A stretch of 62,750 nt of DNA, filler included, from Reclinomonas americana ATCC 50394 (taxonomy: Eukaryota), in the NCBI GenBank assembly GCA_048213135.1. It is 4 parts of 2 records of this genome, joined end to end, with 100 filler letters (N's around TTAATTAATTAA, not from the genome) between each part and the next. Parts side by side here need not be neighbours in the genome. Positions count along the whole stretch, not along the records: positions 1 to 10,627 come from PS015387.1; 3 more parts are not named here. One strand, 5' to 3'. Below are positions 4,900 to 54,573 of the stretch, in pieces; the stretch's first letter is position 1, and every line of letters starts with the position of its first letter. The translations under genes and the position numbers were made by a program. A model generated the notes under the pieces. It did not search any database. It worked only from the letters and a program-made list of their open reading frames with translations, and was not told the DNA's origin.

Positions 4900-6388
4900 G
4901 CAGAGGCAGAGCGCGCAACCGAGAGAGACGGAACAAGAAAGATGAGAGACAGCACCAGGAAGAGAAGAGGAACAGGCAGATGCACTGAAGAATGTGCAGA
5001 ATCACGGACAGAGAGGCAGAAGTGCACGCAAGCGAAAGAAACAAGACGAGAGATATGAGAGGGACAGTAGGGAACAGAACAGAGAGATGGAGCACACACA
5101 CACACAGGAGAGAGAAGCAACAGCATCGCAACTTCTGCGCGTAGTAGTTGGTGGCCTCCTGCTCGAAGATGGTCACAAAGGCCTTGTAGCGCTCGACAAT
5201 CAGGGCTGCGCCGACACAAGTGAGTTGCTTGCGGTGCATATCAAGGCGTGCATGACTGACTCACCAGTGTTAACAAACTGCAGCTGCTGGCGCATGACCT
5301 TCGGCTCCGCGTCGTACACAATGCCGCGGCCGAAAACCGGGATCACAAAGCGATACACCTGCACGAGGGAATGAGTTAGTGGTGTGCATGAGAATGTTCG
5401 ACTTGCGAAAAAACAATGCGTGAAGAATGAGCACCGAGCAATAGATAACACAACGAGAAAGCAAAGGAGGGGGTGCATGACAGAAGAAGGTTCGACTTGC
5501 GAAAATCACGAAAAATAAGCATTGCCATGACAACGTGCCCAGGAAGTGAATGCGCGAGAGAGAACAACACACAACAGAGGGAGAGAGAGAGAGAGGATGC
5601 ACTCGCACACAGATTCCACGCAGCAAGAGATGCCGTGCATCTCGGTTTCTGCGCACCTCACGCGGGCTCAGCTCGTCGTCCTTGCGGTTGAAGAAGATAT
5701 CGTGACGAGTCGGGTGCGTCAGGAACGTCATGCGCTTGCCGAGAATGCTCGCCGTAAACACATCGCCGTACTGAAAAGGAATCTTTTCAGCGAAAAAAAG
5801 TGCGAGAAGCCGCAAAAAAAGGGAGGAGGGAGGGACGCAACACGGCGACGGCCCTCAAGCAGGAATGCCACCGGATTCTTGCCAAACGGAATGAGCGTGC
5901 CCAACACGGGCATCCAGCTGATCCACTCCGGCGGCGCATTCGAGTAAATGCGCTGCGCGGAATGATGTGAGAACATTGAATGATCCGGTGCATCTTCTTC
6001 TTCTTCTTCGAAAATAAGAACACAGCACATGCGCGTCGACACGTGCACGCACGCACACAAAGAGAAGAGAGAGAGAATGGTGCGGAGGATCACCCACACT
6101 CGCAAAGTGTCATGATGATCTCGCGCGCGGATGATCACGCGCATGGAAGAGAACCCGCTCTTGCATGTGCAGAGAAGCAGTGATCACAAGCCGTGGAGAG
6201 CAAGATCACAGTGGCAAGGGTCGAAAAACAACAACAACGTAGAAAAGAGTGCGCGCACGTTTTTCGAAAATGTCGCACCATGTCACGCACACAAAAAAAC
6301 ACCCACTCACCACCTTGATCAGCGACCACAAGTACCGCACCACCAGCAGGCCCACAATCACCGCCGCAATGTCAAACGCCAAACCCAT
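2711..6388 (-). CDS. CYP51: Sterol 14-alpha-demethylase (cytochrome P450 family 51), multi-exon
   Basis: N-terminal anchor MGLAFDIAAVIVGLLVVRYLWSLIK; SRS1 SPREVYRFVIPVFGRGIVYDA; I-helix GTLFAGQHTSSITSTW; KEALRLYPP; PERW; heme motif FGRGVHRCLGE. GT-AG introns; the N gap 4076-4707 lies in an intron. Confidence 0.95.
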
Positions 6389-6482
6389 TGCTCCCACACA
6401 AACAAAAACAACAAGAAATGCAATTGTCCAGATTCTAAAGAGCGAGCAACAAAACATCTGTCCCCTTTCATAAACACACATT

Positions 6483-7238
6483 ATGCGCGCGCACAGTGCC
6501 GCCTTTGTGGTGGCCGTGGCGCTGAGTGTGATGACAGTGACGGTGATGATGATGGCAGAGTCGGCGCATGCCAAGACAAAAGTCGTCTTGGAGGCGCCCG
6601 GAGGATGATCTTTGGGTCGGGTGAGTGTGCACTCTCACTCACTTGCACACGCATACACAGCAAAGACACACAGAAGGCACGCGCAGTGCACAGAGTGAAG
6701 AGCCGCACTTGTGAACATCTCTCGTCATGTTCGAGAGCAGTTGGGCACTTTTTTCATACTTACTGATTCTCTTTGTGTTGTACGCGTGTTCTTATGCGCA
6801 GCGCTTTCCCAGTGTAAAGCAGGTGAGCTTATTCTTCATTCACGCGATGCCCATCTCCGCTGATGCTAACAACGACGACAACAACACAGTTCATCACTTC
6901 TCATGCTCGGGAATTGTTGCGCCTCCATCATTGTCTCACTGCGTAGTGTGGGCGCTTACTGATTCTCTGATGTGTGTGTCTGTCTCGTTAGCCCCGAGGT
7001 GGAGGTGTCGCACCGCAGCAGTGTGTCAGCGCGATTGATGTTGGTGGACGACAGCGATGCGTCGGGTGTGCCGTCGGATTCTGTGACGCTGCATGCCGAC
7101 ACGTCGATTGCCGACCTGTTGAGCATGGTCGGCGACTTTGTCGAGTCGGCTCGTGAGGCCAATGGGCTCGCCCTCACCGCCCAGCTGAAGGCGCAGGCCG
7201 AGCAGAATCCGTTCCGGCCGTCCACGTGTGGCGGGTAA
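6483..7238 (+). CDS. Sep15/SelM-family selenoprotein (143 aa, Sec at codon 42), signal peptide
   Basis: Exons 6483-6620, 6802-6822, 6890-6915 and 6992-7238 splice in phase to MRAHSAAFVVAVALSVMTVTVMMMAESAHAKTKVVLEAPGG-U-SLGRRFPSVKQFITSHAREFPEVEVSHRSSVSARLMLVDD...STCGG*. This aligns by eye to Sep15 ILEVCG-U-KLGRFPQVQAFV. TGA at 6606-6608; SECIS downstream. Confidence 0.88.
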
Positions 7239-7292
7239 AGCAACGAGCTTGTCTGCGAGGTGCTTTCTTGCTGCTCTTGTCCCTTTGCGTGT

Positions 7293-7372
7293 GAAGTCGT
7301 GTGAGGCCTCGTCTCCATCAAACCTCGGTGTCTTGTCGCACTGGAGGGGGAGCGTGAGCTGATTTGGATTTC
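7293..7372 (+). promoter_or_regulatory. SECIS element (type II, GUGA core) in the selenoprotein 3' UTR
   Basis: Helix I GAAGTC (7293-7298) / GATTTC (7367-7372); core GTGAG (7301) ... TGAT (7360); ~11-bp helix II with bulges; unpaired AAA at 7320-7322; apical mini-stem CCTC-GGTG / CACT-G-GAGG. Starts 55 nt after the TAA. Confidence 0.82.
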
Positions 7373-7480
7373 TTCTTCCACTTCTACCGCGGAGGGACTT
7401 GGGCGGCGAATGAAACGCACGTCGTTATTCTTCTAATGACATTGTTTCGGATTGTAATGGTGTGGGAGACGAGTGGTCAC

Positions 7481-10055
7481 TTAGGGTTCGGCCGCCGTGT
7501 GCTTTTGCGCTTTCCGGATGGTGAACGCGGAGCGGCGGGCGGAACGATCGACAGTGAAGCAGGTGTTCTTGATGTCGGGGTCGAACGGGGCGCAGTGAGC
7601 CAGTTCCCACACGCCGATTGACTTCCTCGGTCCCTCGGGCGTGTTGTGCACACACTGCTCCAGATCGATATCGTCGCGGTGCTCGAGTACCACTGGCGAC
7701 AAAAGAAAATCAGTGAGCGGGATCAACACCAACAGAAGACAGTTGTTGTTGTTGTTGTGCACGCACCATCCAGGAGATCCTTGATCATGCGACGATGGTG
7801 GCGCTCCGCATTCGCCGTGTTGAGGTGCAGGCCGGGGTTGGAGTTCACCTCGATCAGCATCGGTCGCCAGTCGGCGTCGATGAGAATGTCAAAGCCGAGC
7901 GGCTGGAACGCGTTGTCAATGTGACCTGTGGTTGGAGGGTGGTCAGTGGCACGGTGCACCGCAGAGGAAAGAGAGAGAGAGATAGAGAGGCAAACCGTCG
8001 CGTGGCCAGGCGGCGAGCGTGCGCTTGATGAGGTCCTTGATGCGCGGACGCAGGGTCTTGTCGTAGTAGCCGGCGCCCTTGACCTCGCTGGAAAGAGGGG
8101 AAGGCGGTGAGAGGCGGAAGAGGGAGGCGAGGGAAGGGAAAAGGAGAAGGAGGAAGACAATAGAATGGGAAGTAAACGAGAAACAAGAGAGCACGATGAC
8201 TGAGAGCAGCGAGTTGGGTGAGCACGAGATCAGCGAAACAAGTAAATATGCAGCAAGGCAGGTGAACATGAGTAGAGAAACAAAAGATCGCAACACTACT
8301 GCAGCAACACAAGCAAAACAAGAGAGCAGTGAGACAGTGATCACGTGGGCATAGACAGTCAGTACAGAATCGTGAAAGTATGAGCAGAGAGACAAGCAAG
8401 AAATGCGAGAACAGTGAGACAGTGATACGTGACGGGACAGGCGAACGAGGCAGCAGCGAGACAGTGTGTACGAGAGCAGCGAGACTATAAATATGAGAGC
8501 ACACACAGAGAGAGAGGCCAACGTGAGAGCCGAAAGACAGTGGGTACAAGAGCAGCAAGGAAGGAATGAACACGAAAAGTGTGGCAGGCGAGCGCGAGCT
8601 GGTGAGCACACGGGCATCGACAGGGGTGAGCAGTGGGCACGAGCAGTGGCCAGAAGAGCAGAGAGACGGGTGGGCACAAGATCAGGAAAGCAAGAGAGCC
8701 GTGAGATGAACAGGAGAACAGATCGTGCCTCGTCACGCAACTCCACATACTGGATGAACGTGGCAGAGTCCCACTGGTTCTCAGGCACGCCATCCACGGT
8801 GCCAAAGTCGTCGGACTGCAACTGCACCTGTGCGTTGGTGATGTGCCGGAAACTATGCATCGAGCACAGTGAGACATGAGAAGCGGTAAAGCATCTCGGC
8901 ATCCCACGCAACTTGTCCTTGATGGCGACTCCATCAGTGTCGTACTCGGACGACGAGAAGCGGCAGTAGTAGTCAGTCGAGATGTAGAACACCATGGGAT
9001 TCAGCGAGGTGACCTGTGCGCGTGCGGACGGTGAGTCGCGAGTGGCGTTTGCGGAGCGCTGAGCCGACGAACCAGCACCCACTGGCGAATGTCAAATTTG
9101 TAGCCGCGGATCAGCAGCGGCGGGTCAATGTACCGCTGCACCACAAACGTGCTTGGAATCGGCCTCGTGTCCACATGATCCACCGCCTCGGCGGCATTGT
9201 CGACGAGGAAAATGCCTGGCCCGCACCAACATAATCAGCGAGAAGTGAGCACACACACACGGACTGATGAAAGTTGACGCACCGACACCGCGACCCAGGT
9301 TGGCCTGCTTGACGATCCACGCCTCGCGCTTCACAGGCGTCAGACTCGCGTCGGCACCCACCTCCACCGCCTCGGTGGCACGCTGCACGAACGCTCTGCG
9401 CTCCTCATCGTCGACACCGGTGGTGAGAATGTAGGTCTCGGGTGAGAACTCGGCCACAGCCGCTTTGCCGTCTGTGCGTGGAGCGGGAGGGCGACCTCAC
9501 ATCAAAACTGGAGTGAGATCGCATGTGCCACGCAATGCGCACGCAACAAGCAGACTCGAGTGTGCGGACCATCTCGGCCTTGTTGTCGAGAGTGTGCGCA
9601 TTGCAGAAGTGATTGACCAGCTGTCGATGAGGCGTGATGGGCACCACACGGGCGTAGGTGTAGCTCCACTTTAGGTTGGCGGCTTGTCTGCAGTGGGGTG
9701 ATGAGCACGGGGGATGATGTGTTTGTGTGGGGAAAAGAGAGAGAGAGAGTAACAAACTTGGTGAGTTGGCGTGCTGGTTTCCATCCGCGCGCGTCCAGCT
9801 CATCGCGCAGCACCTTCATGCCACTGGTGCTGTCGATCCAGTACAAGTACTGCCAGCCTGTGCGAATGTCAGAGAGAGAGTGGGGAGAGAAAGGAGGCCA
9901 AGAAAGAAAGGACCTTTGCGATTGAATGCATACGGCGGCTCTGCTTCTTCGTCCTTCTCGCTCGCCGCCGACGACTTGCTGGCGCAGTCGGCGCATGCAA
10001 TGAGAGCGAAGAGGAGGATGGAGAGGGAGACGAGGGCGAGAGTGTGTCGGCGCAT
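7481..10055 (-). CDS. Tubulin-tyrosine-ligase-like (TTL/TTLL ATP-grasp) protein with N-terminal signal peptide
   Basis: Motifs LVNHF, [72 protein letters not shown]. N-terminus MRRHTLALVSLSILLFALIACADC. Confidence 0.9.
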
Positions 10056-36248: not shown

Positions 36249-36313
<65 letters not shown>

Positions 36314-38204
36314 AGAGAGAGTACGTTAGTTGTTGTTGTGTGGAGAGAGAGAGAGTAGTAGAAAGACGAGAGAGGAGGAGGAGAGAGAGAGAGGGTGAGA
36401 GCGTGTGTGTGAGAGGTGGTCGTACNNNNNNNNNNNNNNNNNNNNNNNNNNNNNNNNNNNNNNNNNNNNNNNNNNNNNNNNNNNNNNNNNNNNNNNNNNN
36501 NNNNNNNNNNNNNNNNNNNNNNNNNNNNNNNNNNNNNNNNNNNNNNNNNNNNNNNNNNNNNNNNNNNNNNNNNNNNNNNNNNNNNNNNNNNNNNNNNNNN
36601 NNNNNNNNNNNNNNNNNNNNNNNNNNNNNNNNNNNNNNNNNNNNNNNNNNNNNNNNNNNNNNNNNNNNNNNNNNNNNNNNNNNNNNNNNNNNNNNNNNNN
36701 NNNNNNNNNNNNNNNNNNNNNNNNNNNNNNNNNNNNNNNNNNNNNNNNNNNNNNNNNNNNNNNNNNNNNNNNNNNNNNNNNNNNNNNNNNNNNNNNNNNN
36801 NNNNNNNNNNNNNNNNNNNNNNNNNNNNNNNNNNNNNNNNNNNNNNNNNNNNNNNNNNNNNNNNNNNNNNNNNNNNNNNNNNNNNNNNNNNNNNNNNNNN
36901 NNNNNNNNNNNNNNNNNNNNNNNNNNNNNNNNNNNNNNNNNNNNNNNNNNNNNNNNNNNNNNNNNNNNNNNNNNNNNNNNNNNNNNNNNNNNNNNNNNNN
37001 NNNNNNNNNNNNNNNNNNNNNNNNNNNNNNNNNNNNNNNNNNNNNNNNNNGTACGTGTACGTAGTACGTAGTACGTACGTACGTAGTAGTAGTAGTAGTA
37101 GAGTATAGTAGTAGAGAGAGTAGAGAGAGAGAGAGAGAAGGACGGTTCGAGAGAGAGAGAGAGACAGAAAGAGAGAGAGAACGACTTGTTTTGTGGTTTG
37201 GTGACCGTGCGAGAAAAGAGGGAGTATTGACAATCAGACAGACGGAGGAGAAGGGGAGAGAAGGAAGGAGCGTGGGAGCGAAGCGGCTTGTTTGGAGGAC
37301 AGTGGGTGCTGCCCATTTAGTTAGGAGACAGTGCAGGAAGAGGGGCACGGATGTGCAGACGGAGAGAAAGGCGAAAGAAATGTACGAGAGAGCGAAGGGG
37401 AGAGAGGGAAACGCAGATTATTTGGAGGACGATCGTTGCTGACACCACGTCACTGCATGTAAAGGAGAAGGAAAAGACAGGGAGCTGGTAGATAGACAGA
37501 GAGAGACAGAGATAAGAAGAGATCAGGGCTGTTGACACTGTTTTTCCTTCCGCAGGCTCTGCATACATCGCAGTGTCTGGCATGTACTATCCGAGAACGG
37601 ACCACAGTTCTTCTGTGGTTGATTGGTGCTTGGCTGTGCGGCGCATGCTGACAGAATTTGAAGCCAAGGTCGGCAGGAGTGAGGAAAGCACGCCATCTGC
37701 CCCTGTCGTGCGCTCATCATCGCGTCTTTTTCGTTCTCTCAGACGGGACTGGAAGTGTTGTACAGAATCGGTGTCAACACGGGACCGCTCACGTCGGGTG
37801 CGTACACTCTGCATCGCTGTGCTGCGGTGCAGATCGAGTTCTCACGAGCTCCACAGGCATTGTTGCCGGCCTCATGCCCACGTTCGACGTGTACGGCGGT
37901 AAGTAGTTTCTCACTGTCAATGCTCCCTCCGTTTTCGCGCGAGCAGCGACTGATCCAAGATGTGCACGCGCACAGATGCCGTCAACATGGCATCAAGAAT
38001 GGAGAGCCTGAGTCCGCTCAACCAGATTCAGATTTCCGAGTCCACGCACGCTCTCGTGCGCAGTCACTACGACGTGGAGACGCGCATGGTTGAAGGTGAG
38101 ATGATACGTTTTTTCTGTGTCACGCGGCTCGGAAGCTCACAACACGTCGCTACGCAGTCAAGGGCATTGGTATGACTTCAGCGTTCGTCGTGCACGATCG
38201 ATAG
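27407..38204 (+). CDS. Large multi-TM receptor (TmcB-like N-terminus) with 3 PAS domains and one class III nucleotide cyclase domain
   Basis: Many hydrophobic exons; YPENAELAALYSQFLLEVKQD; PAS segments IESVNHTFCRLLGY, DAIVVCDTKGIILEANEAMRSLFGY, DAIFWCEPDGTICDCN; cyclase ERVKTIGSAY, RIGVNTGP, FDVYGDAVNMASRMES, VKGIG. Single-gene continuity is inferred. Confidence 0.85.
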
Positions 38205-48499: not shown

Positions 48500-51400
48500 C
48501 TACACCGACGCAGACGGACCAGCAGCAGCGGCAGAAGCAGGAGCCGGCACGAGTTGGATGCGAGAAGTCTCCGCAGCGCGCACCTGCTCGTCGGTCCAGT
48601 GCATAGGCTTCAACCGGCCACCGAGCCAGTACTGGACTTGATCGTCGTAATGCGGGGTGCCGCGAACGCCACTCTGGCCCGTCGGCAGGATGTTCATCGA
48701 GCGGGACAAGTCGGCACAGTCGACAACCATGCGGTACGAGGGCAGGAAAATGTGTGCCAGGTAGTTGTTCACGGGATCGGCGGCCGTGTTGTTCAACGTG
48801 TCAGCATCCTGTGCGCGACGAGAAAATGAGACTGTGCGGTCCACTGCAGCATAACTGCTCTCAACGCACTCCGCCAAGCTCGAATGGGCCACGGTTGAAG
48901 GCGCCGACCGCCGCGCCAATCGGGTGCTCCATGGTGAACTGGTGCAGACGGCCCCATCGCCACTTGTTGCGGTTCGAACCTGCAGCAGCAGCACGAGTTA
49001 AGGTCGGCTACCAACAAGTACCAGACCAGAGGGCTGACACACACTCACCCAGCCTCCGCTTCAGCTCGTCATGTGCGTCCTGCAGCGCATGTGCCACCAG
49101 CTGCTGCTTGCCACCCACTTGGCGCAGCAGTTCCGAGTCCTGGTCCAGTTGCAACAGTCGAACCAGAGTGTTGATCTCCGAGCCATACAACGCACCTGGT
49201 GACCGTCAGCGTGAGCAACGAGTCGTGTGTCTGGCGCGCACACATACATCCTCGTTCAACGCAACTGTCCTCCTTGATCAGGGGGAACACCAGCTTGCCG
49301 GTCATCATGTCGGTGACCTCCGGGCCGATCGTGTCCTCCAGCACATTGCGCAGCAGACGAGCTCGGAACACCTGGAGTTGGAGTGCGATTCTCACGTGAA
49401 TGGCAGAGAATAATGCACGCAAGAGGACCACACAATGAACCTGGTAAATGGCAGCGGGGGCAGATTGTGCATCCATGACGCCGTCAAAGTTCAAGAACTC
49501 CTGGAACAAGTCTCGCAACTCCTGGCTGAGGCCACTGACATCGACTTCGCGAACACTGCGTGCCAGGCAAGACGATAAGTGAGACGAGCACGAACGTGGC
49601 TGACCACTCGTCATGCGACGCAACGCGGCCTGCAGATCCAGTGCCGCCAGCGACTTGATATCCATCTGGTGACGACGCGCGTCCTCCAGAGTGTACTTGC
49701 CACCATCTGCAGTGGTTTCCTGCAGACACAATCACGTCAGCCATACCGATTTCCACATGCAGAAAACACAAAGAGACGACGCACAATAATGAGATCCTTG
49801 ATGCGACGCGCACGGTTGCCGTTCAGCCACAGATTGCCGAGATCGTACGGGTACGTCTCCGGATCGATGACGCGATGATTGCAGCTGATAATGTATCCTA
49901 CATCAATGGGCACGGGCAGTGTGAGTCATTGCATTGCGTCCATCCGCAACCACATTAAAAGAAGCGGACCTTGCGCAGGATTCAGACAGTGCGGCATTTC
50001 GTGCTTCGGCACAAAGCCAGTCCATTCGGTGCGGCTCGTGTTGCCGGGCTGCGGGAAGCGCGGCGACACGGAGCGAATCGGCACTGCAGCCGCACGCGTG
50101 AGCGGATAGTCGCGCGATGTGCCAACAATGCGTTAACTCACCAGCACCGGACAAGCAGTAACCAATGTTGCCGTCGACATCGGCGTAGGTGAGGTTGAGG
50201 CACACGCAGTCGAAGCCCTGTACAAAGGCCTTGAAGCTGGCCCAGTCGTGCAGGTGCATTTGGTCGCGCAAGTAGTGCACAAAGTACGGCATTGTGCCGG
50301 CCCAGCACTGGCGCTCTGCCGGCAGCTCGCTGGCGGCCACTGCATGTGCATGAGTGAGTGCGACAGCTTGTTTTGTACCACACAAAAAATACAAACCTCG
50401 AGGGAGGGGTGGCGACAGGAACACTGCCTGCACTGCAATAGCGCGGTCAACGCTATGCGGCGCCGACAGCACCGAGCTGATCACTGGACCGTGATGCGAC
50501 ACGCGCACCGTCTGAAAATGAGAGGCGTGCACGTGAGTTTCTCTTGAACTGTGCACAGGGGGGGAGTGTGCGTCTCCACAAACCAGCGTTTCGTCGGGCT
50601 TGCTCTTGATCTTGATCACCTCGTGGATCACCTGGAAATCACGCCACTGCTCGTCGTACTTGTACTGCCCGTCATTCTCCGGGTTCACCTCCTCGATGAA
50701 GATGTCGGCAATGTCGGCGAATCCGAGTGTGATGCCGTACGTGATGCGGTCGGTGTGGCCAATGGTGACGCCTGGCATGGTGGGCATGGCCACGCCTGGG
50801 GGAAGGGGGCAAGGGGCAAGGGGGAATGGGGAAGGGGCAAGGAGAAGACAGAGGGACAAGGGAGAAGGGAGAGGAGGGGGGAGCAATGAGAGTATGAACT
50901 GTGACGAAAAGCACTTGTCTTCAACAAGCGTACGCACAGATACCATATGACACGCCCACACACTCACACACTCGCACAAGACATGTTTCTTTGTCTCTCT
51001 CTCTCTCTCTCTCCCTCCCTTCCCTCCCTACAAACCAGTGACATTGATGCCGGCACTCTCGCACTTCAGGTGGAACTCCATCCAGATCGACGGCAGACCG
51101 ACAGCCAAGTGCGGATCCGACGCCAAAATCGGCTTGCCAGTGTCGGTGAGAGCGCCACTGGGGTGGGGAGAGTTGGCGATGAGCCGCGTGCATCAAAATG
51201 TGCGACGTGCAAGTAACTGGTAGGCTCACCTGACCACCCACGAGTTGGAGCCCTGGCCCGTGGGAATGGCACGCAGCGGCTCCAGGTTCACCTCGTTGAC
51301 GCCGAGCGGCAGGATGGTGGGCACATACGACGGGTGCCAGAAATCGAGCTCCTTGGCCGCCTCTTCGCCGATGCGGTCCACAATGAGCTGGTTCACCAGC

Positions 51401-51818
51401 GGCTCGTACCTTTGTGTGCAAACATGCGTCAGTACAAGCGGGGACGCACATTGACAGGGAAAAACTCACCAGCCGTAGTTCATCTCGAACGAGATGAGCC
51501 TGCGCGTACGTGTGATGGAGAAGATGAGAGGCTGATCTGCATCATGCTCCAGACGCACACACACATACCGATGAATGGCTAGCAAGTCGGCGATGGTGAA
51601 CGGAGCCGTGGCGATGCCGGCAAGCGTAAACTCCACCGGTCGCTTGTACGCCGCGCCGGAAATGTACGCATTGATGCCGTCGACATACGACGAGAACCAG
51701 CGTCGCGTCTCCTCATCAATGTGCGCCGCATCCAGCAACCCATTGGCGGCAAACCGCAGCGTACGCGCCAGTCGATCGGTCGGCAGCGCCGCCTCACCAG
51801 CAAACTCGGACAAGCGAC
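48500..51818 (-). CDS. Penicillin acylase / AHL acylase family Ntn-hydrolase (peptidase S45), 5' end lost in gap
   Basis: GRLSEFAG; YVDGINAYI; GQGSNSWVV (nucleophile Ser at 51247-51249); TDTGKPILASDPHL; YADVDGNIGY; LPTGQSG...PHYDDQ. About a dozen GT-AG introns. Confidence 0.92.
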
Positions 51819-52090
51819 CTTTGTGTGGCACATAAGATGATCCATGCAAACTGACACACACCATGATTGTACGTAATGCNNNNNNNNNNNNNNNNNNNNN
51901 NNNNNNNNNNNNNNNNNNNNNNNNNNNNNNNNNNNNNNNNNNNNNNNNNNNNNNNNNNNNNNNNNNNNNNNNNNNNNNNNNNNNNNNNNNNNNNNNNNNN
52001 NNNNNNNNNNNNNNNNNNNNNNNNNNNNNNNNNNNNNNNNNNNNNNNNNNNNNNNNNNNNNNNNNNNNNNNNNNNNNNNNNNNNNNNNNN

Positions 52091-52558
52091 GGCAAGTGGT
52101 GAGTGATGGCCGCGGCGTGGGGGACGTAGATGTGTGACGTGACTCATTTTCCCCCACGATGATACAGGCCGCTGTGGTTGAGTCCGCGCCAGGTGCGCGT
52201 GGTGCCCGTGTCGGAGCGCTTCTGCGACTATGCCTTTGAGGTGCGCAACCGTGTCTTCGAGGCCGGTTTCGACGCCGAGGTGGACGACAGCGACAACACT
52301 GTCAGCAAGAAGGTGCGCACGGCCCAGGTCGAGCACTGGAACTACATTCTCGGTGAGTCTTTTGTGTGTGTGTGCGTGCGTGCACTTGACGAGTGCGCAG
52401 CGAGTTGCTGATTTTGTGTGGCGGTGGTAGTGGTCGGCCAGGATGAGCTGGATCACCAGACGGTGAATGTGCGCACCCGCGACAACGTCGTGCACGGCGA
52501 GTGCAAGGTGGAGGAGCTCATCGAGAGGCTCAACCACTCGCGCGACGCCTTTGAGTAA
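52091..52558 (+). CDS. TARS: Threonyl-tRNA synthetase, C-terminal anticodon-binding domain (partial)
   Basis: GKWPLWLSPRQV...KKVRTAQVEHWNYILVVGQDE...TVNVRTRDN. Confidence 0.92.
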
Positions 52559-53731: not shown

Positions 53732-54497
53732 ATGTCGCACCGCAAGTTCTCGGCACCCCGCCACGGTGAGTGGGTCGCGCGTTTGCTGGGTGCCATGGCT
53801 CCCTCCCCCCATGTGACACTCACCGTTTTTTTGTTCCACTTGCCAGGCTCCCTGGGCTTCCTGCCCCGCAAGCGCTGCGTGCGCCACCAGGGCAAGGGTG
53901 AGCAATAATGTGTCCCCACGTTGATGATGGACTTGTCGTGCTCACCAGTCGTCATTTGTGTGTCACAGTCAAGTCGTTCCCCCGCGACGACGCCAAGAAG
54001 CCATGCCACTTCACCGCCTTCATGGGCTACAAGGCTGGCATGACCCACATTGTGCGCCAGGCCAACCGCGTCGGCTCCAGTTGCGTTGCTGGCTGGCTGG
54101 CCTTGAGCGCAATGCATGACACTGACGACGTGTTTGGTGGTGTGCAGAGATTCACGAGAAGGACGTTGTCGAGTCGGTCACCATCATTGAGTGCCCGCCG
54201 ATGATTGTGGTCGGCATGGTCGGCTACGTCGAGACCCCGCGCGGCCTGCGCACCCTGACCACGGTGTGGGCGGAGAACCTGTCCAACGAGGTCAAGCGCC
54301 GCTTCTACAAGAACTGGACGCACGCCAAGAAGAAGGCCTTCACCAAGTACGCCAAGAAGTGGGCCAGCGAGAAGAAGGAGATCGAGACCGAGATTGCTCG
54401 CATCAAGAAGTACTGCCAGGTCGTGCGCGCCCTCGCTCACACCCAGATCCACAAGATTGGCCTGCGCCAGAAGAAGGCCCACTTGCTCGAGATCCAG
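53732..54497 (+). CDS. RPL3: 60S ribosomal protein L3 (uL3), 5' part only; 5' UTR intron at ~53496-53715
   Basis: [63 protein letters not shown]. Ends in an intron at the N gap. Confidence 0.97.
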
Positions 54498-54573
54498 GTT
54501 TGTAATCACACACATATGCACGCGCGTGAAGATGGCCCCGACNNNNNNNNNNNNNNNNNNNNATCTCTCCACA

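What the first reader, a model, noticed from the sequence alone, without database searches (positions are those of the whole stretch)
6483..7372. Hidden Sep15/SelM-family selenoprotein: in-frame UGA plus SECIS
Seen: a signal-peptide ORF hits TGA at codon 42 (6606). Reading through keeps phase across three introns and gives VVLEAPGG-U-SLGRRFPSVKQFITSHAREFPEVEV...RLMLVDD, and a SECIS-like hairpin lies 55 nt after the stop. Known: this matches the thioredoxin-like Sep15 (SELENOF, CGU-KLGRFPQVQAFV) / SelM (CGGU) family. TGA is a normal stop in neighbouring genes (ALDH6A1, LSM2, SPAG16), so this is gene-specific recoding. Inference: the organism has Sec machinery. Standard gene callers would miss or truncate this gene.
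Basis: partly seen in the sequence, partly recalled or inferred. Interest (0 to 1): 0.85.

Follow-up and report, generated by a model that had tools for sequence, protein, structure and literature searches.

The report
Hidden SelM/Sep15-like selenoprotein gene candidate
A small four-exon gene of a compact protist-like genome probably reads an internal UGA "stop" as selenocysteine to make a secreted thioredoxin-like protein, an ordinary kind of gene that annotation usually misses, and here it lacks the partner cysteine.

Summary
The sequence-level observation holds. An ATG at 6483 opens a hydrophobic, signal-peptide-like ORF that meets TGA at codon 42 (6606-6608). Reading through it and splicing three introns gives 143 codons in frame, ending at TAA 7236-7238. 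The exon 3/4 junction is confirmed by an EST-derived ORF (P0003, 98% identical to exon 4). The 85 nt from 55 nt after the stop fold, taken alone, into a type-II SECIS-like hairpin with a UGAG/UGAU core.

By my own structural rules such a hairpin is rare: 2 sites in 125.5 kb, and 4 of 1500 shuffled UTRs. Those rules were set after I had seen the candidate. Rfam finds no SECIS, the published SECISearch patterns miss the hairpin by one nucleotide, and it is not the favoured fold within the whole UTR.

The motif is P-G-G-U, so the cysteine of the family's CxxU/CxU motif is absent. Pfam finds nothing in exon 1 or exon 4 alone, and the spliced protein could not be submitted, so Sep15/SelM membership is untested. 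No genome is held, so the Sec machinery is untested too.

Verdict: probably (about 0.6) a real, unannotated, divergent SelM/Sep15-like selenoprotein gene. It is a new member of a known kind, of moderate interest.

The parts
6483..6620 (+). Exon 1 (coding part). It starts at ATG 6483, has a hydrophobic signal-peptide-like N-terminus (about codons 1-30, 6483-6572), then K-T-K-V-V-L-E-A-P-G-G, the TGA, and S-L-G-R.
   Evidence: Kyte-Doolittle 15-residue means reach 2.46. GC3 is 0.76 in this frame against 0.65 and 0.47 in the other two.
6606..6608 (+). In-frame TGA, codon 42, the proposed selenocysteine codon (motif P-G-G-U).
6621..6801 (+). Intron 1, 181 nt, GTGAGT...CAG. Contains CTTACTGATTCTCT at 6759-6772.
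   Evidence: No transcript evidence for this junction.
6802..6822 (+). Exon 2, 21 nt, 7 codons (R-F-P-S-V-K-Q).
   Evidence: Inferred from splice signals and phase only.
6823..6889 (+). Intron 2, 67 nt, GTGAGC...CAG, with GCTAAC upstream of the acceptor.
6890..6915 (+). Exon 3, 26 nt, ending in phase 2.
   Evidence: Its 3' end is present in the EST-derived ORF P0003.
6916..6991 (+). Intron 3, 76 nt, weak donor GTTGCG...TAG. Contains the same 14-mer at 6955-6968.
   Evidence: The junction is confirmed by P0003, which reads E-F|P-E-V-E-V.
6992..7238 (+). Exon 4 coding part (81 full codons plus TAA 7236-7238). It ends ...S-T-C-G-G, which holds the only Cys of the mature protein.
   Evidence: P0003 is 98% identical over 81 aa. 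GC3 is 0.81.
7293..7372 (+). Type-II SECIS-like hairpin. Helix 1 is 7293-7298/7367-7372. The 5' core is UGAG 7302-7305, preceded by G. Helix 2 is 7305-7316/7349-7360 (11 pairs in the list, counting the G7305-U7360 core pair), with a bulged U7312, a bulged A7357 and a U7309xU7355 mismatch. AUCAAA 7317-7322 is unpaired. Helix 3 is 7323-7331/7338-7347 and its loop is 7332-7337. The 3' core is UGAU 7360-7363.
   Evidence: The core fits the UGAN/KGAW consensus (PMC3753652, passages). There is no Rfam match. The fold is 4.4 kcal/mol above the MFE in the full UTR.
7239..7480 (+). The whole space available for the 3' UTR: 242 nt up to the TAA (7481-7483) of the convergent TTL-family gene on the minus strand.

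Best explanation
A four-exon gene (6483-7238, + strand) encodes a protein of about 143 residues that enters the secretory pathway through an N-terminal signal peptide. It carries selenocysteine at residue 42, encoded by UGA 6606-6608.

Decoding would depend on a type-II SECIS-like kink-turn hairpin at 7293-7372 in a very short 3' UTR. SBP2, EFSec and tRNA-Sec would read it; this step is inferred, and the machinery was not seen.

The protein resembles the small thioredoxin-like ER selenoproteins SELENOM and SELENOF in four respects:
- a signal peptide;
- G-G-U directly after a hydrophobic strand;
- a total length of about 145 residues;

It has Pro where the family has the CxxU cysteine. It would therefore act through a lone Sec, like a peroxidase or a thiol-selenol exchanger. 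A substrate thiol would resolve it, or speculatively the only Cys of the mature protein, which sits in the C-terminal T-C-G-G tail.

Shown: the ORF, the TGA, the phase, one splice junction, transcription, and a hairpin with a SECIS core. Inferred: Sec insertion, family membership, cellular location and chemistry.
For: 1. The spliced read-through is 143 codons with no other stop. Exon 4's frame is translated-looking (GC3 0.81) and exon 1 shows the same frame signature (0.76/0.65/0.47).

2. P0003, an ORF called on an EST, is 98% identical to exon 4 and spans the exon 3/4 junction. So the locus is transcribed and intron 3 is removed as modelled.

3. The first 30 residues are signal-peptide-like. 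A signal peptide followed by a stop 11 codons later makes no sense without read-through.

4. G-G-U matches the documented SELENOM motif CGGU. The documented signal peptide (25 residues) and length (145 residues) are close to the values here (PMC10668967, passages). The stretch after the U agrees at 9 of 15 aligned positions with the SELENOF string quoted in the finding. That string is unverified by tools, though I recall it the same way.

5. The isolated 85 nt fold as helix 1, core, helix 2, A-rich loop and helix 3, with a UGAG/UGAU core that fits UGAN/KGAW.

6. My structural scan finds 2 sites in 125.5 kb counting both strands, one of them this hairpin. Loosened criteria give 3 to 9 sites. 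Shuffled UTRs are hit 4 of 1500 times (strict) and 22 of 1500 times (loose).

7. The hairpin passes my re-implementation of the published Loose+ PatScan pattern once p2 is allowed to be 14 instead of 10-13.

8. TGA ends two neighbouring genes, so the code is not reassigned.

9. No full-length protein exists in the searched collections, as expected for a missed selenoprotein.
Against: 1. Rfam gives no SECIS match at E<=10 in 6300-7800 or 7225-7500, and nothing at gathering score in the whole window.

2. The candidate fails all four published SECISearch patterns as written, because AA starts 15 nt after the core N (p2=14, limit 13). With stem 2 ending at 7316/7349, the apical part is 32 nt against a filter limit of 30.

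3. In my re-implementation, Loose+-type matches are frequent: 126 in the window, or 137 with p2 up to 14.

4. In the whole 242-nt UTR the SECIS fold is 4.4 kcal/mol above the MFE, and helix 2 pair probabilities are 0.03-0.04. The hairpin's stability z-score is about 0.

5. My scan criteria were written after I saw the candidate.

6. Pfam finds no family at E<=10 in exon 1 or exon 4 alone. PDB and representative searches with exon 4 find no relative.

7. The Cys of CxxU is absent.

8. The 20 codons between the TGA and exon 4 show no codon bias (GC3 0.50).

9. The initiator Met of P0003 requires one more G in the GGG run of exon 3 than the window has. So the EST and the window disagree on the frame upstream of exon 4. 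This is either an EST error or a window error.

10. Part of the 'signal peptide' is coded by a GTG/ATG-rich simple stretch.

11. No Sec machinery could be looked for.
Confidence: 0.6

Rival explanations
1. There is no selenocysteine. The TGA is a true stop, and the translated product is only the C-terminal part. That part would be an ORF starting at the Met the EST caller used in exon 3 if the window lacks one G there, or at Met 7036. On this reading the locus could also be a decaying ex-selenoprotein or ex-Cys gene in an organism without Sec machinery. The upstream hydrophobic ORF would be a leader or uORF, and the hairpin a chance structure.
For: - The start of P0003 implies a frame that differs from the window upstream of exon 4.
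- There is no Rfam SECIS.
- The hairpin lies outside the published pattern limits and is not the MFE in context.
- GC3 is 0.50 in the 20 post-TGA codons.
- The hallmark Cys is missing.
- The hydrophobic N-terminus is partly simple sequence.
Against: - A 41-codon leader ORF with coding-like frame composition and a signal-peptide shape is unexpected.
- Phase is kept through two micro-exons.
- G-G-U and the following residues match the SELENOM motif and the quoted SELENOF stretch exactly at the TGA (PMC10668967).
- A SECIS-core hairpin on the right strand occurs in 0.3-1.5% of shuffled UTRs.
- ESTs are single-pass reads, and P0003 already differs at 2 of 81 residues.
Confidence: 0.2
2. The TGA never reaches the ribosome, or it is not real. 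Either an alternative donor upstream of 6606 (for example the in-phase GT at 6582 or 6585) removes it, or it is an assembly or sequencing error for a Cys or Trp codon.
For: - This organism uses at least one weak donor (GTTGCG, intron 3), so weak in-phase GTs in exon 1 cannot be excluded.
- No reads could be laid on the region.
Against: - A consensus GTGAGT donor lies 12 nt after the TGA.
- Skipping would delete exactly the strand and the G-G-U motif that give the family resemblance.
- A SECIS-like hairpin would then be unexplained.
Confidence: 0.08
3. It is a real selenoprotein but not a Sep15/SelM member. It would be a lineage-specific secreted selenoprotein family that shares only a short G-G-U-containing stretch with that family.
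For: - Pfam gives no family at E<=10 for exon 4, which should hold about two thirds of the domain.
- phmmer of exon 4 against 1.84 billion representatives finds only P0003 and a spurious repeat protein.
- The CxxU Cys is absent.
- The AF2 model of exon 4 matches no PDB fold.
Against: - The test on pieces is weak. Exons 2 and 3 and the U region could not be included.
- Length, signal peptide, position of the U and the G-G-U motif fit SELENOM as described in PMC10668967.
- The AF2 model was of low confidence (pLDDT 66), so its lack of a match says little.
Confidence: 0.15

Closest known systems
SELENOM (selenoprotein M)
   Same: Both have an N-terminal ER-type signal peptide and are small: 145 residues for SELENOM, 143 codons here. 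In both, Sec sits early in the mature chain within G-G-U, right after a hydrophobic strand. The SELENOM motif CGGU lies between strand b1 and helix a1 (PMC10668967, passages). Both have a single Sec and a 3'-UTR SECIS.
   Different: Here the motif is P-G-G-U, with no Cys. No Pfam hit could be obtained. The C-terminal tail ends T-C-G-G. The SECIS-like element has G before UGA, and its AA lies one nucleotide further from the core than the published patterns allow.
SELENOF (Sep15)
   Same: It is a thioredoxin-like ER selenoprotein with a CGU motif (PMC9304195 and PMC10668967, passages). I could not verify that string with tools.
   Different: SELENOF has an N-terminal Cys-rich UGGT-binding domain (recalled) for which there is no room here. 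Here there is one extra Arg at the exon 1/2 junction and no Cys before the U.
SELENOE (Fep15)
   Same: It is a distant SELENOF relative and ER-resident (PMC13134290, passages). From memory of the original abstract, which is not held here, its active site has Sec but no partner Cys. That would be the precedent for a lone-Sec member.
   Different: It has been reported only in gnathostomes: as a selenoprotein in fishes and as a Cys form in frogs. No sequence comparison was possible.
Eukaryotic type-II SECIS element
   Same: Both have the helix 1 - internal loop - UGAN/KGAW core - helix 2 - unpaired A's - helix 3 layout in the 3' UTR (PMC3753652, passages and supplement S1/S4).
   Different: There is no match to the Rfam SECIS models. 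The 5' core is GUGA, not AUGA. The core-to-AA distance is 14 nt rather than 11-13. Helix 2 has two bulges and a U.U mismatch.

Membership tests
Sep15/SelM family (Pfam Sep15_SelM; SELENOF, SELENOM) | Significant match of the protein to the family HMM | tested here: inconclusive
   Only contiguous pieces could be submitted. Exon 1 read through the TGA (46 aa) and exon 4 (81 aa) each gave 0 families at E<=10. The spliced 143-residue product, which holds the most conserved stretch across exons 1-3, could not be given to any tool.
Sep15/SelM family (Pfam Sep15_SelM; SELENOF, SELENOM) | Redox motif CxxU / CxU (CGGU in SELENOM, CGU in SELENOF) between b1 and a1 | tested here: not met
   The sequence reads A-P-G-G-U. 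G-G-U is present, but the Cys is replaced by Pro (codon CCC, two changes away from a Cys codon). The motif definition is from PMC10668967.
Sep15/SelM family (Pfam Sep15_SelM; SELENOF, SELENOM) | N-terminal signal peptide, small size, Sec near the mature N-terminus | tested here: met
   The hydrophobic core covers residues about 6-25 (Kyte-Doolittle up to 2.46), with Arg at position 2 and A-H-A before K31. The model has 143 codons and U at 42. SELENOM has a 25-residue signal peptide and 145 residues. No dedicated signal-peptide predictor was available.
Sep15/SelM family (Pfam Sep15_SelM; SELENOF, SELENOM) | Thioredoxin-like a/b fold | tested here: inconclusive
   The AF2 model of exon 4 alone has pLDDT 66.4 and the elements strand-strand-helix-strand. 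Foldseek against the PDB gave 0 matches at E<=0.001. The full protein could not be folded.
Eukaryotic SECIS-dependent selenoprotein gene | In-frame UGA with coding sequence continuing after it | tested here: met
   101 further codons run without a stop across three introns. Exon 4's frame is coding-like and is confirmed by P0003. However, the 20 codons directly after the UGA show no codon bias.
Eukaryotic SECIS-dependent selenoprotein gene | [quoted passage not shown] | tested here: inconclusive
   The core, the helices and an AAA run are present in the MFE of 7288-7372. Such a hairpin is rare by my scan. Against this, there is no Rfam match, it falls outside the published PatScan limits by 1 nt, and it is not the MFE in the full UTR.
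Eukaryotic SECIS-dependent selenoprotein gene | Organism has tRNA-Sec, EFSec, SBP2, SPS2, PSTK and SepSecS | not testable with these tools
   No whole genome is held. The window has 0 tRNA genes and 0 Rfam families at gathering score.
Eukaryotic SECIS-dependent selenoprotein gene | Sec or Cys homologues aligned at the UGA, with conservation on both sides | not testable with these tools
   The only relative found is P0003, which starts after the UGA. The metagenome scan found none.

The most novel reading that the evidence does not exclude
This is a distinct, Cys-less (P-G-G-U) branch of the SelM/Sep15 fold, or a new secreted selenoprotein family. In it a lone Sec would work with a resolving Cys on a flexible C-terminal T-C-G-G tail, an arrangement that recalls the C-terminal redox tail of thioredoxin reductase. 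It would be decoded by a lineage-specific SECIS form: GUGA core, AA 14 nt from the core, and invisible to the Rfam models.
Probability: 0.25. Interest if true: 0.55.

Novelty: new member of a known kind. Interest (0 to 1): 0.36.

Why it matters
If the gene is real, it shows that this little-sampled eukaryote uses selenocysteine. Its ribosomal protein uL3 (RPL3) is at most 78% identical to anything among the best 120 hits listed by the protein search.

It would add a SelM/Sep15-like member that lacks the partner cysteine. That bears on how these ER oxidoreductases work: whether they need an intramolecular selenenylsulfide at all.

It would also give a SECIS that standard models miss. Such a SECIS is useful for tuning selenoprotein finders on deep-branching lineages.

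It is not surprising in kind. SelM and Sep15 occur widely in protists and algae (PMC2375036, passages), and selenoprotein genes are routinely misannotated.

Tried and rejected
- Pfam on exon 1 (TGA read through) and on exon 4 gave nothing at E<=10.
- phmmer against the PDB with exon 4 gave one irrelevant match at E=1.1. With exon 1 it gave none.
- ESM Atlas with exon 4 scored 0.81 at best, below the level that counts as a lead.
- phmmer of exon 4 against 1.84 billion representatives returned only P0003 and P0004. P0004 is a 1681-aa repeat protein whose score comes from about 25 repeats of a short proline-rich unit, so I rejected it as spurious.
- In the metagenome scan with exon 4, 565 pattern matches were found, and none was confirmed.
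- A search with the antisense ORF 6959-7432, meant to recover other ORFs of the same EST and so learn its extent, scored none of 72 candidates.
- Sequencing runs: none was listed and no RNA holder was listed.
- Whole genome: none is held.
- AF2 on exon 4 alone (pLDDT 66) followed by Foldseek against the PDB gave no match at E<=0.001. The top hits are unrelated.
- My first ad hoc SECIS scan gave 18 hits in the window and paired the 5' core with UGAG 7355-7358, which needs a bulged G next to the core. I dropped that model in favour of the MFE-supported UGAU 7360-7363 core, which fits KGAW.
- An earlier ungapped scan found only a G.U-rich 7355/7408 pairing, which I rejected.
- The two ATGA sites in the UTR (7410, 7436) have no suitable 3' GA partner, by inspection.
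- The second hit of the strict scan (35823-35764, minus strand) is not supported by its MFE.
- Paper searches for the EST accession and for the SELENOF/SELENOM peptide strings found nothing usable.
- The Fep15 paper is not held.
- The earlier-findings look-ups returned nothing on this genome or sequence. One search listed only unrelated viral and prokaryotic cases.
- The supplements of PMC3753652 were read only through term search (files S1 and S4 of the zip). File 1 was not searched.
Full report
1. WHAT IS THERE

The window is eukaryotic and compact, with 54.6% G+C. Short introns break up genes for a P450, a TTL-family protein, a WD40 protein, an aldehyde dehydrogenase, MORN, carboxylesterases, PAS, a penicillin amidase, ribosomal protein uL3 (RPL3) and a G-patch protein.

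At 6483 an ATG opens an ORF that stops at TGA 6606-6608, which is codon 42. A divergent minus-strand gene starts only 93 nt upstream, at 6389. A convergent TTL-family gene ends with TAA at 7481-7483. The locus therefore has just 242 nt for its 3' UTR.

2. GENE MODEL

Exons 6483-6620, 6802-6822, 6890-6915 and 6992-7238 join to 432 nt, that is 143 codons plus TAA. The TGA is the only internal stop.

Introns 1 and 2 have GTGAGT and GTGAGC donors and CAG acceptors. Intron 3 has a weak GTTGCG donor.

An ORF called on an EST (P0003, 86 aa) is 98% identical to exon 4. Before exon 4 it reads M-L-G-E-F. This shows three things:
- The locus is transcribed.
- Intron 3 is removed exactly as modelled.
- An alternative, also in-frame, longer exon 3 is not used.

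P0003 carries a caveat. Its M-L-G needs one more G in the GGG run of exon 3 than the window has. So either the single-pass EST or the window has an indel there. P0003 also differs at 2 of 81 residues. The junctions of introns 1 and 2 have no transcript support.

3. CODING SIGNALS

GC at codon position 3, position 1 and position 2 is 0.76/0.65/0.47 for exon 1 before the TGA, and 0.81/0.65/0.49 for exon 4. An Aldedh exon gives 0.71/0.62/0.51. The N-terminus is strongly hydrophobic, with 15-residue Kyte-Doolittle means up to 2.46. It has Arg at position 2 and A-H-A before Lys31, the shape of a signal peptide.

Two points count against:
- Part of this stretch is coded by GTG/ATG-rich simple sequence.
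- The 20 codons between the TGA and exon 4 show no bias (0.50/0.53/0.47). I cannot explain this.

4. IS TGA A NORMAL STOP HERE?

The last ORF matching Aldedh (profile positions 379-446 of 461, at residues 9-76 of 99) ends at TGA. So does the last WD40-bearing ORF of the minus-strand WD40 gene. The TTL gene ends in TAA and the penicillin amidase ORF in TAG. A genome-wide reassignment of TGA is therefore unlikely. I did not check LSM2.

5. THE HAIRPIN

Folded alone, 7288-7372 gives as its MFE (-25.1 kcal/mol) the layout of a type-II SECIS:
- Helix 1 is 7293-7298/7367-7372.
- An internal loop holds G-UGA-G (7301-7305) opposite U-GA-U (7360-7363).
- Helix 2 has 11 pairs in the list (counting the G7305-U7360 core pair), two single-base bulges and one U.U mismatch.
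- AUCAAA is unpaired.
- A 9-pair helix 3 ends in a 6-nt loop.

The core fits the published consensus UGAN/KGAW (PMC3753652, passages). The element reads this way only on the + strand.

My controls were as follows:
- A scan asked for this core, at least 9 helix-2 pairs in a constrained fold, AA within 6 unpaired nucleotides, and a helix 1 of at least 5 bp. It finds 2 sites in both strands of the window (125.5 kb). One is this hairpin. The other (35823-35764, minus strand) is not backed by its own MFE.
- Loosened versions of the scan find 3, 6, 9 and 9 sites.
- Of 1500 dinucleotide shuffles of the 242-nt UTR, 4 give a strict hit and 22 a loose hit.
- I wrote these criteria after seeing the candidate, so the implied 0.3-2% is optimistic.

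The evidence against the hairpin is this:
- Rfam gives no SECIS match at E<=10 in 1.5 kb or in 276 nt, and nothing at gathering score in the whole window.
- The four published SECISearch PatScan patterns (supplement S1 of PMC3753652) require AA 11-13 (or 10-13) nt after the core. Here the distance is 14.
- In my re-implementation the candidate is hit only when p2=14 is allowed. Loose+ matches are common: 126 in the window, 15 for p2=14 alone, and a second one at 7292 in the same UTR. My counts per Mb exceed those published, so my version is probably more permissive.
- In the full UTR the SECIS fold is 4.4 kcal/mol above the MFE, and its helix 2 has pair probabilities of 0.03-0.04.
- A 16-nt inverted repeat (7301-7316/7465-7480, 81% complementary) offers a competing pairing.
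- The hairpin is no more stable than shuffles (z = -0.04).

My reading: this is a plausible, somewhat off-consensus SECIS. It is suggestive rather than proven.

6. FAMILY

The motif is A-P-G-G-U. SELENOM is documented with CGGU between b1 and a1, a 25-residue signal peptide and 145 residues. SELENOF is documented with CGU (PMC10668967 and PMC9304195, passages). Length, signal peptide, position of the U and the G-G-U motif fit. The Cys does not: Pro stands in its place.

I recall that string the same way, but no tool or held paper confirmed it.

Formal tests were limited, because only contiguous translations of the window may be submitted:
- Exon 1 and exon 4 alone give no Pfam family at E<=10.
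- They give no PDB relative.
- The Atlas gives no lead.
- Among 1.84 billion representatives, the only homologues found are P0003 and a spurious repeat protein.
- An AF2 model of exon 4 alone (pLDDT 66) matches nothing.

Membership in Sep15/SelM is therefore a well-motivated but untested assignment. One defining feature, the Cys of CxxU, was tested and not met. A lone-Sec relative, SELENOE (Fep15), exists in vertebrates. The lone-Sec property is recalled, since that paper is not held. Its distant relation to SELENOF is from PMC13134290.

7. MECHANISM PROPOSED

The signal peptide takes the nascent chain into the ER. UGA-42 is decoded as Sec through the 3'-UTR element. The mature protein of about 113 residues carries a surface Sec at the b1/a1 turn.

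Without a vicinal Cys, the Sec would cycle through a selenenic acid or a mixed selenenylsulfide. The partner would be a substrate thiol or, speculatively, Cys141 in the C-terminal T-C-G-G tail, which is the only Cys of the mature protein. All of this chemistry is inference.

8. WHAT COULD NOT BE DONE

No genome is held, so the Sec machinery is unknown. The window has no tRNA gene. No sequencing run was listed. The metagenome scan found no relative.

The organism is poorly represented in the databases. Its uL3 (RPL3) exon is at most 78% identical to the best 120 of 2559 hits.

9. VERDICT

- I put about 0.6 on a real Sec-decoded, divergent SelM/Sep15-like gene.
- I put about 0.2 on no Sec at all: a truncated or decaying gene, or a frame error in the window.
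- I put about 0.08 on the TGA being spliced out or being an error.
- Within the Sec reading, I put about 0.15 on a family of its own.

In kind this is a new member of a known class. SelM and Sep15 are widespread in algae and protists (PMC2375036, passages). Interest is moderate: a missed gene, a Cys-less motif, and a SECIS that standard models do not see.

Noticed in passing
window 6759-6772 and 6955-6968: The identical 14-mer CTTACTGATTCTCT lies in intron 1 and in intron 3 of the same gene, each 24-30 nt upstream of the acceptor. TACTGAT occurs only 4 times in both strands of the whole window. It may be a branch-site plus pyrimidine-tract module, or a small intronic duplication.
   Followed up: partly
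window 53732-54512 (+): Only residues 1-187 of ribosomal protein uL3 (RPL3) are encoded here, in three exons. The C-terminal half (about 200 residues) is not detectable anywhere in the window, even at tblastn E<=50. This could be a truncated copy or pseudogene, a misassembly, or very small exons.
   Followed up: partly
window 48503-52143 (-): A multi-exon gene matches Penicillin amidase (Pfam PF01804, best E=5.9e-30) across profile positions 46-675. In my experience (no call tested this) the family is mostly bacterial, so this may be an old horizontal acquisition. It now carries introns and ends in TAG.
   Followed up: no
window 7301-7316 / 7465-7480: A 16-nt inverted repeat (81% complementary) lets the 5' half of the SECIS-like helix 2 pair instead with the last bases before the stop of the convergent TTL gene. 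The whole 242-nt inter-stop spacer folds with z = -3.3 against shuffles. The two 3' UTRs probably overlap.
   Followed up: partly
window 6389-6483: Only 93 nt separate the start codons of the candidate gene and of a divergent minus-strand gene. That gene begins M-G-L-A-F-D-I-A-A-V-I-V-G-L-L-V-V, which looks like a transmembrane start. This is a very short bidirectional promoter region. A GC-rich palindrome (6479-6498) overlaps the ATG.
   Followed up: no
window 6117-6185 (+): A match to my re-implementation of the published strict, default and loose SECISearch patterns (ATGAT ... AA ... AGAG) lies upstream of the candidate gene, inside the neighbouring gene's region. It is on the wrong side of the ORF to serve it, and I take it as a chance match.
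   Followed up: partly
window about 36250-36450: An assembly gap (a run of N ending at about 36426-36450) lies beside a long (CT)n/(AG)n microsatellite.
   Followed up: no
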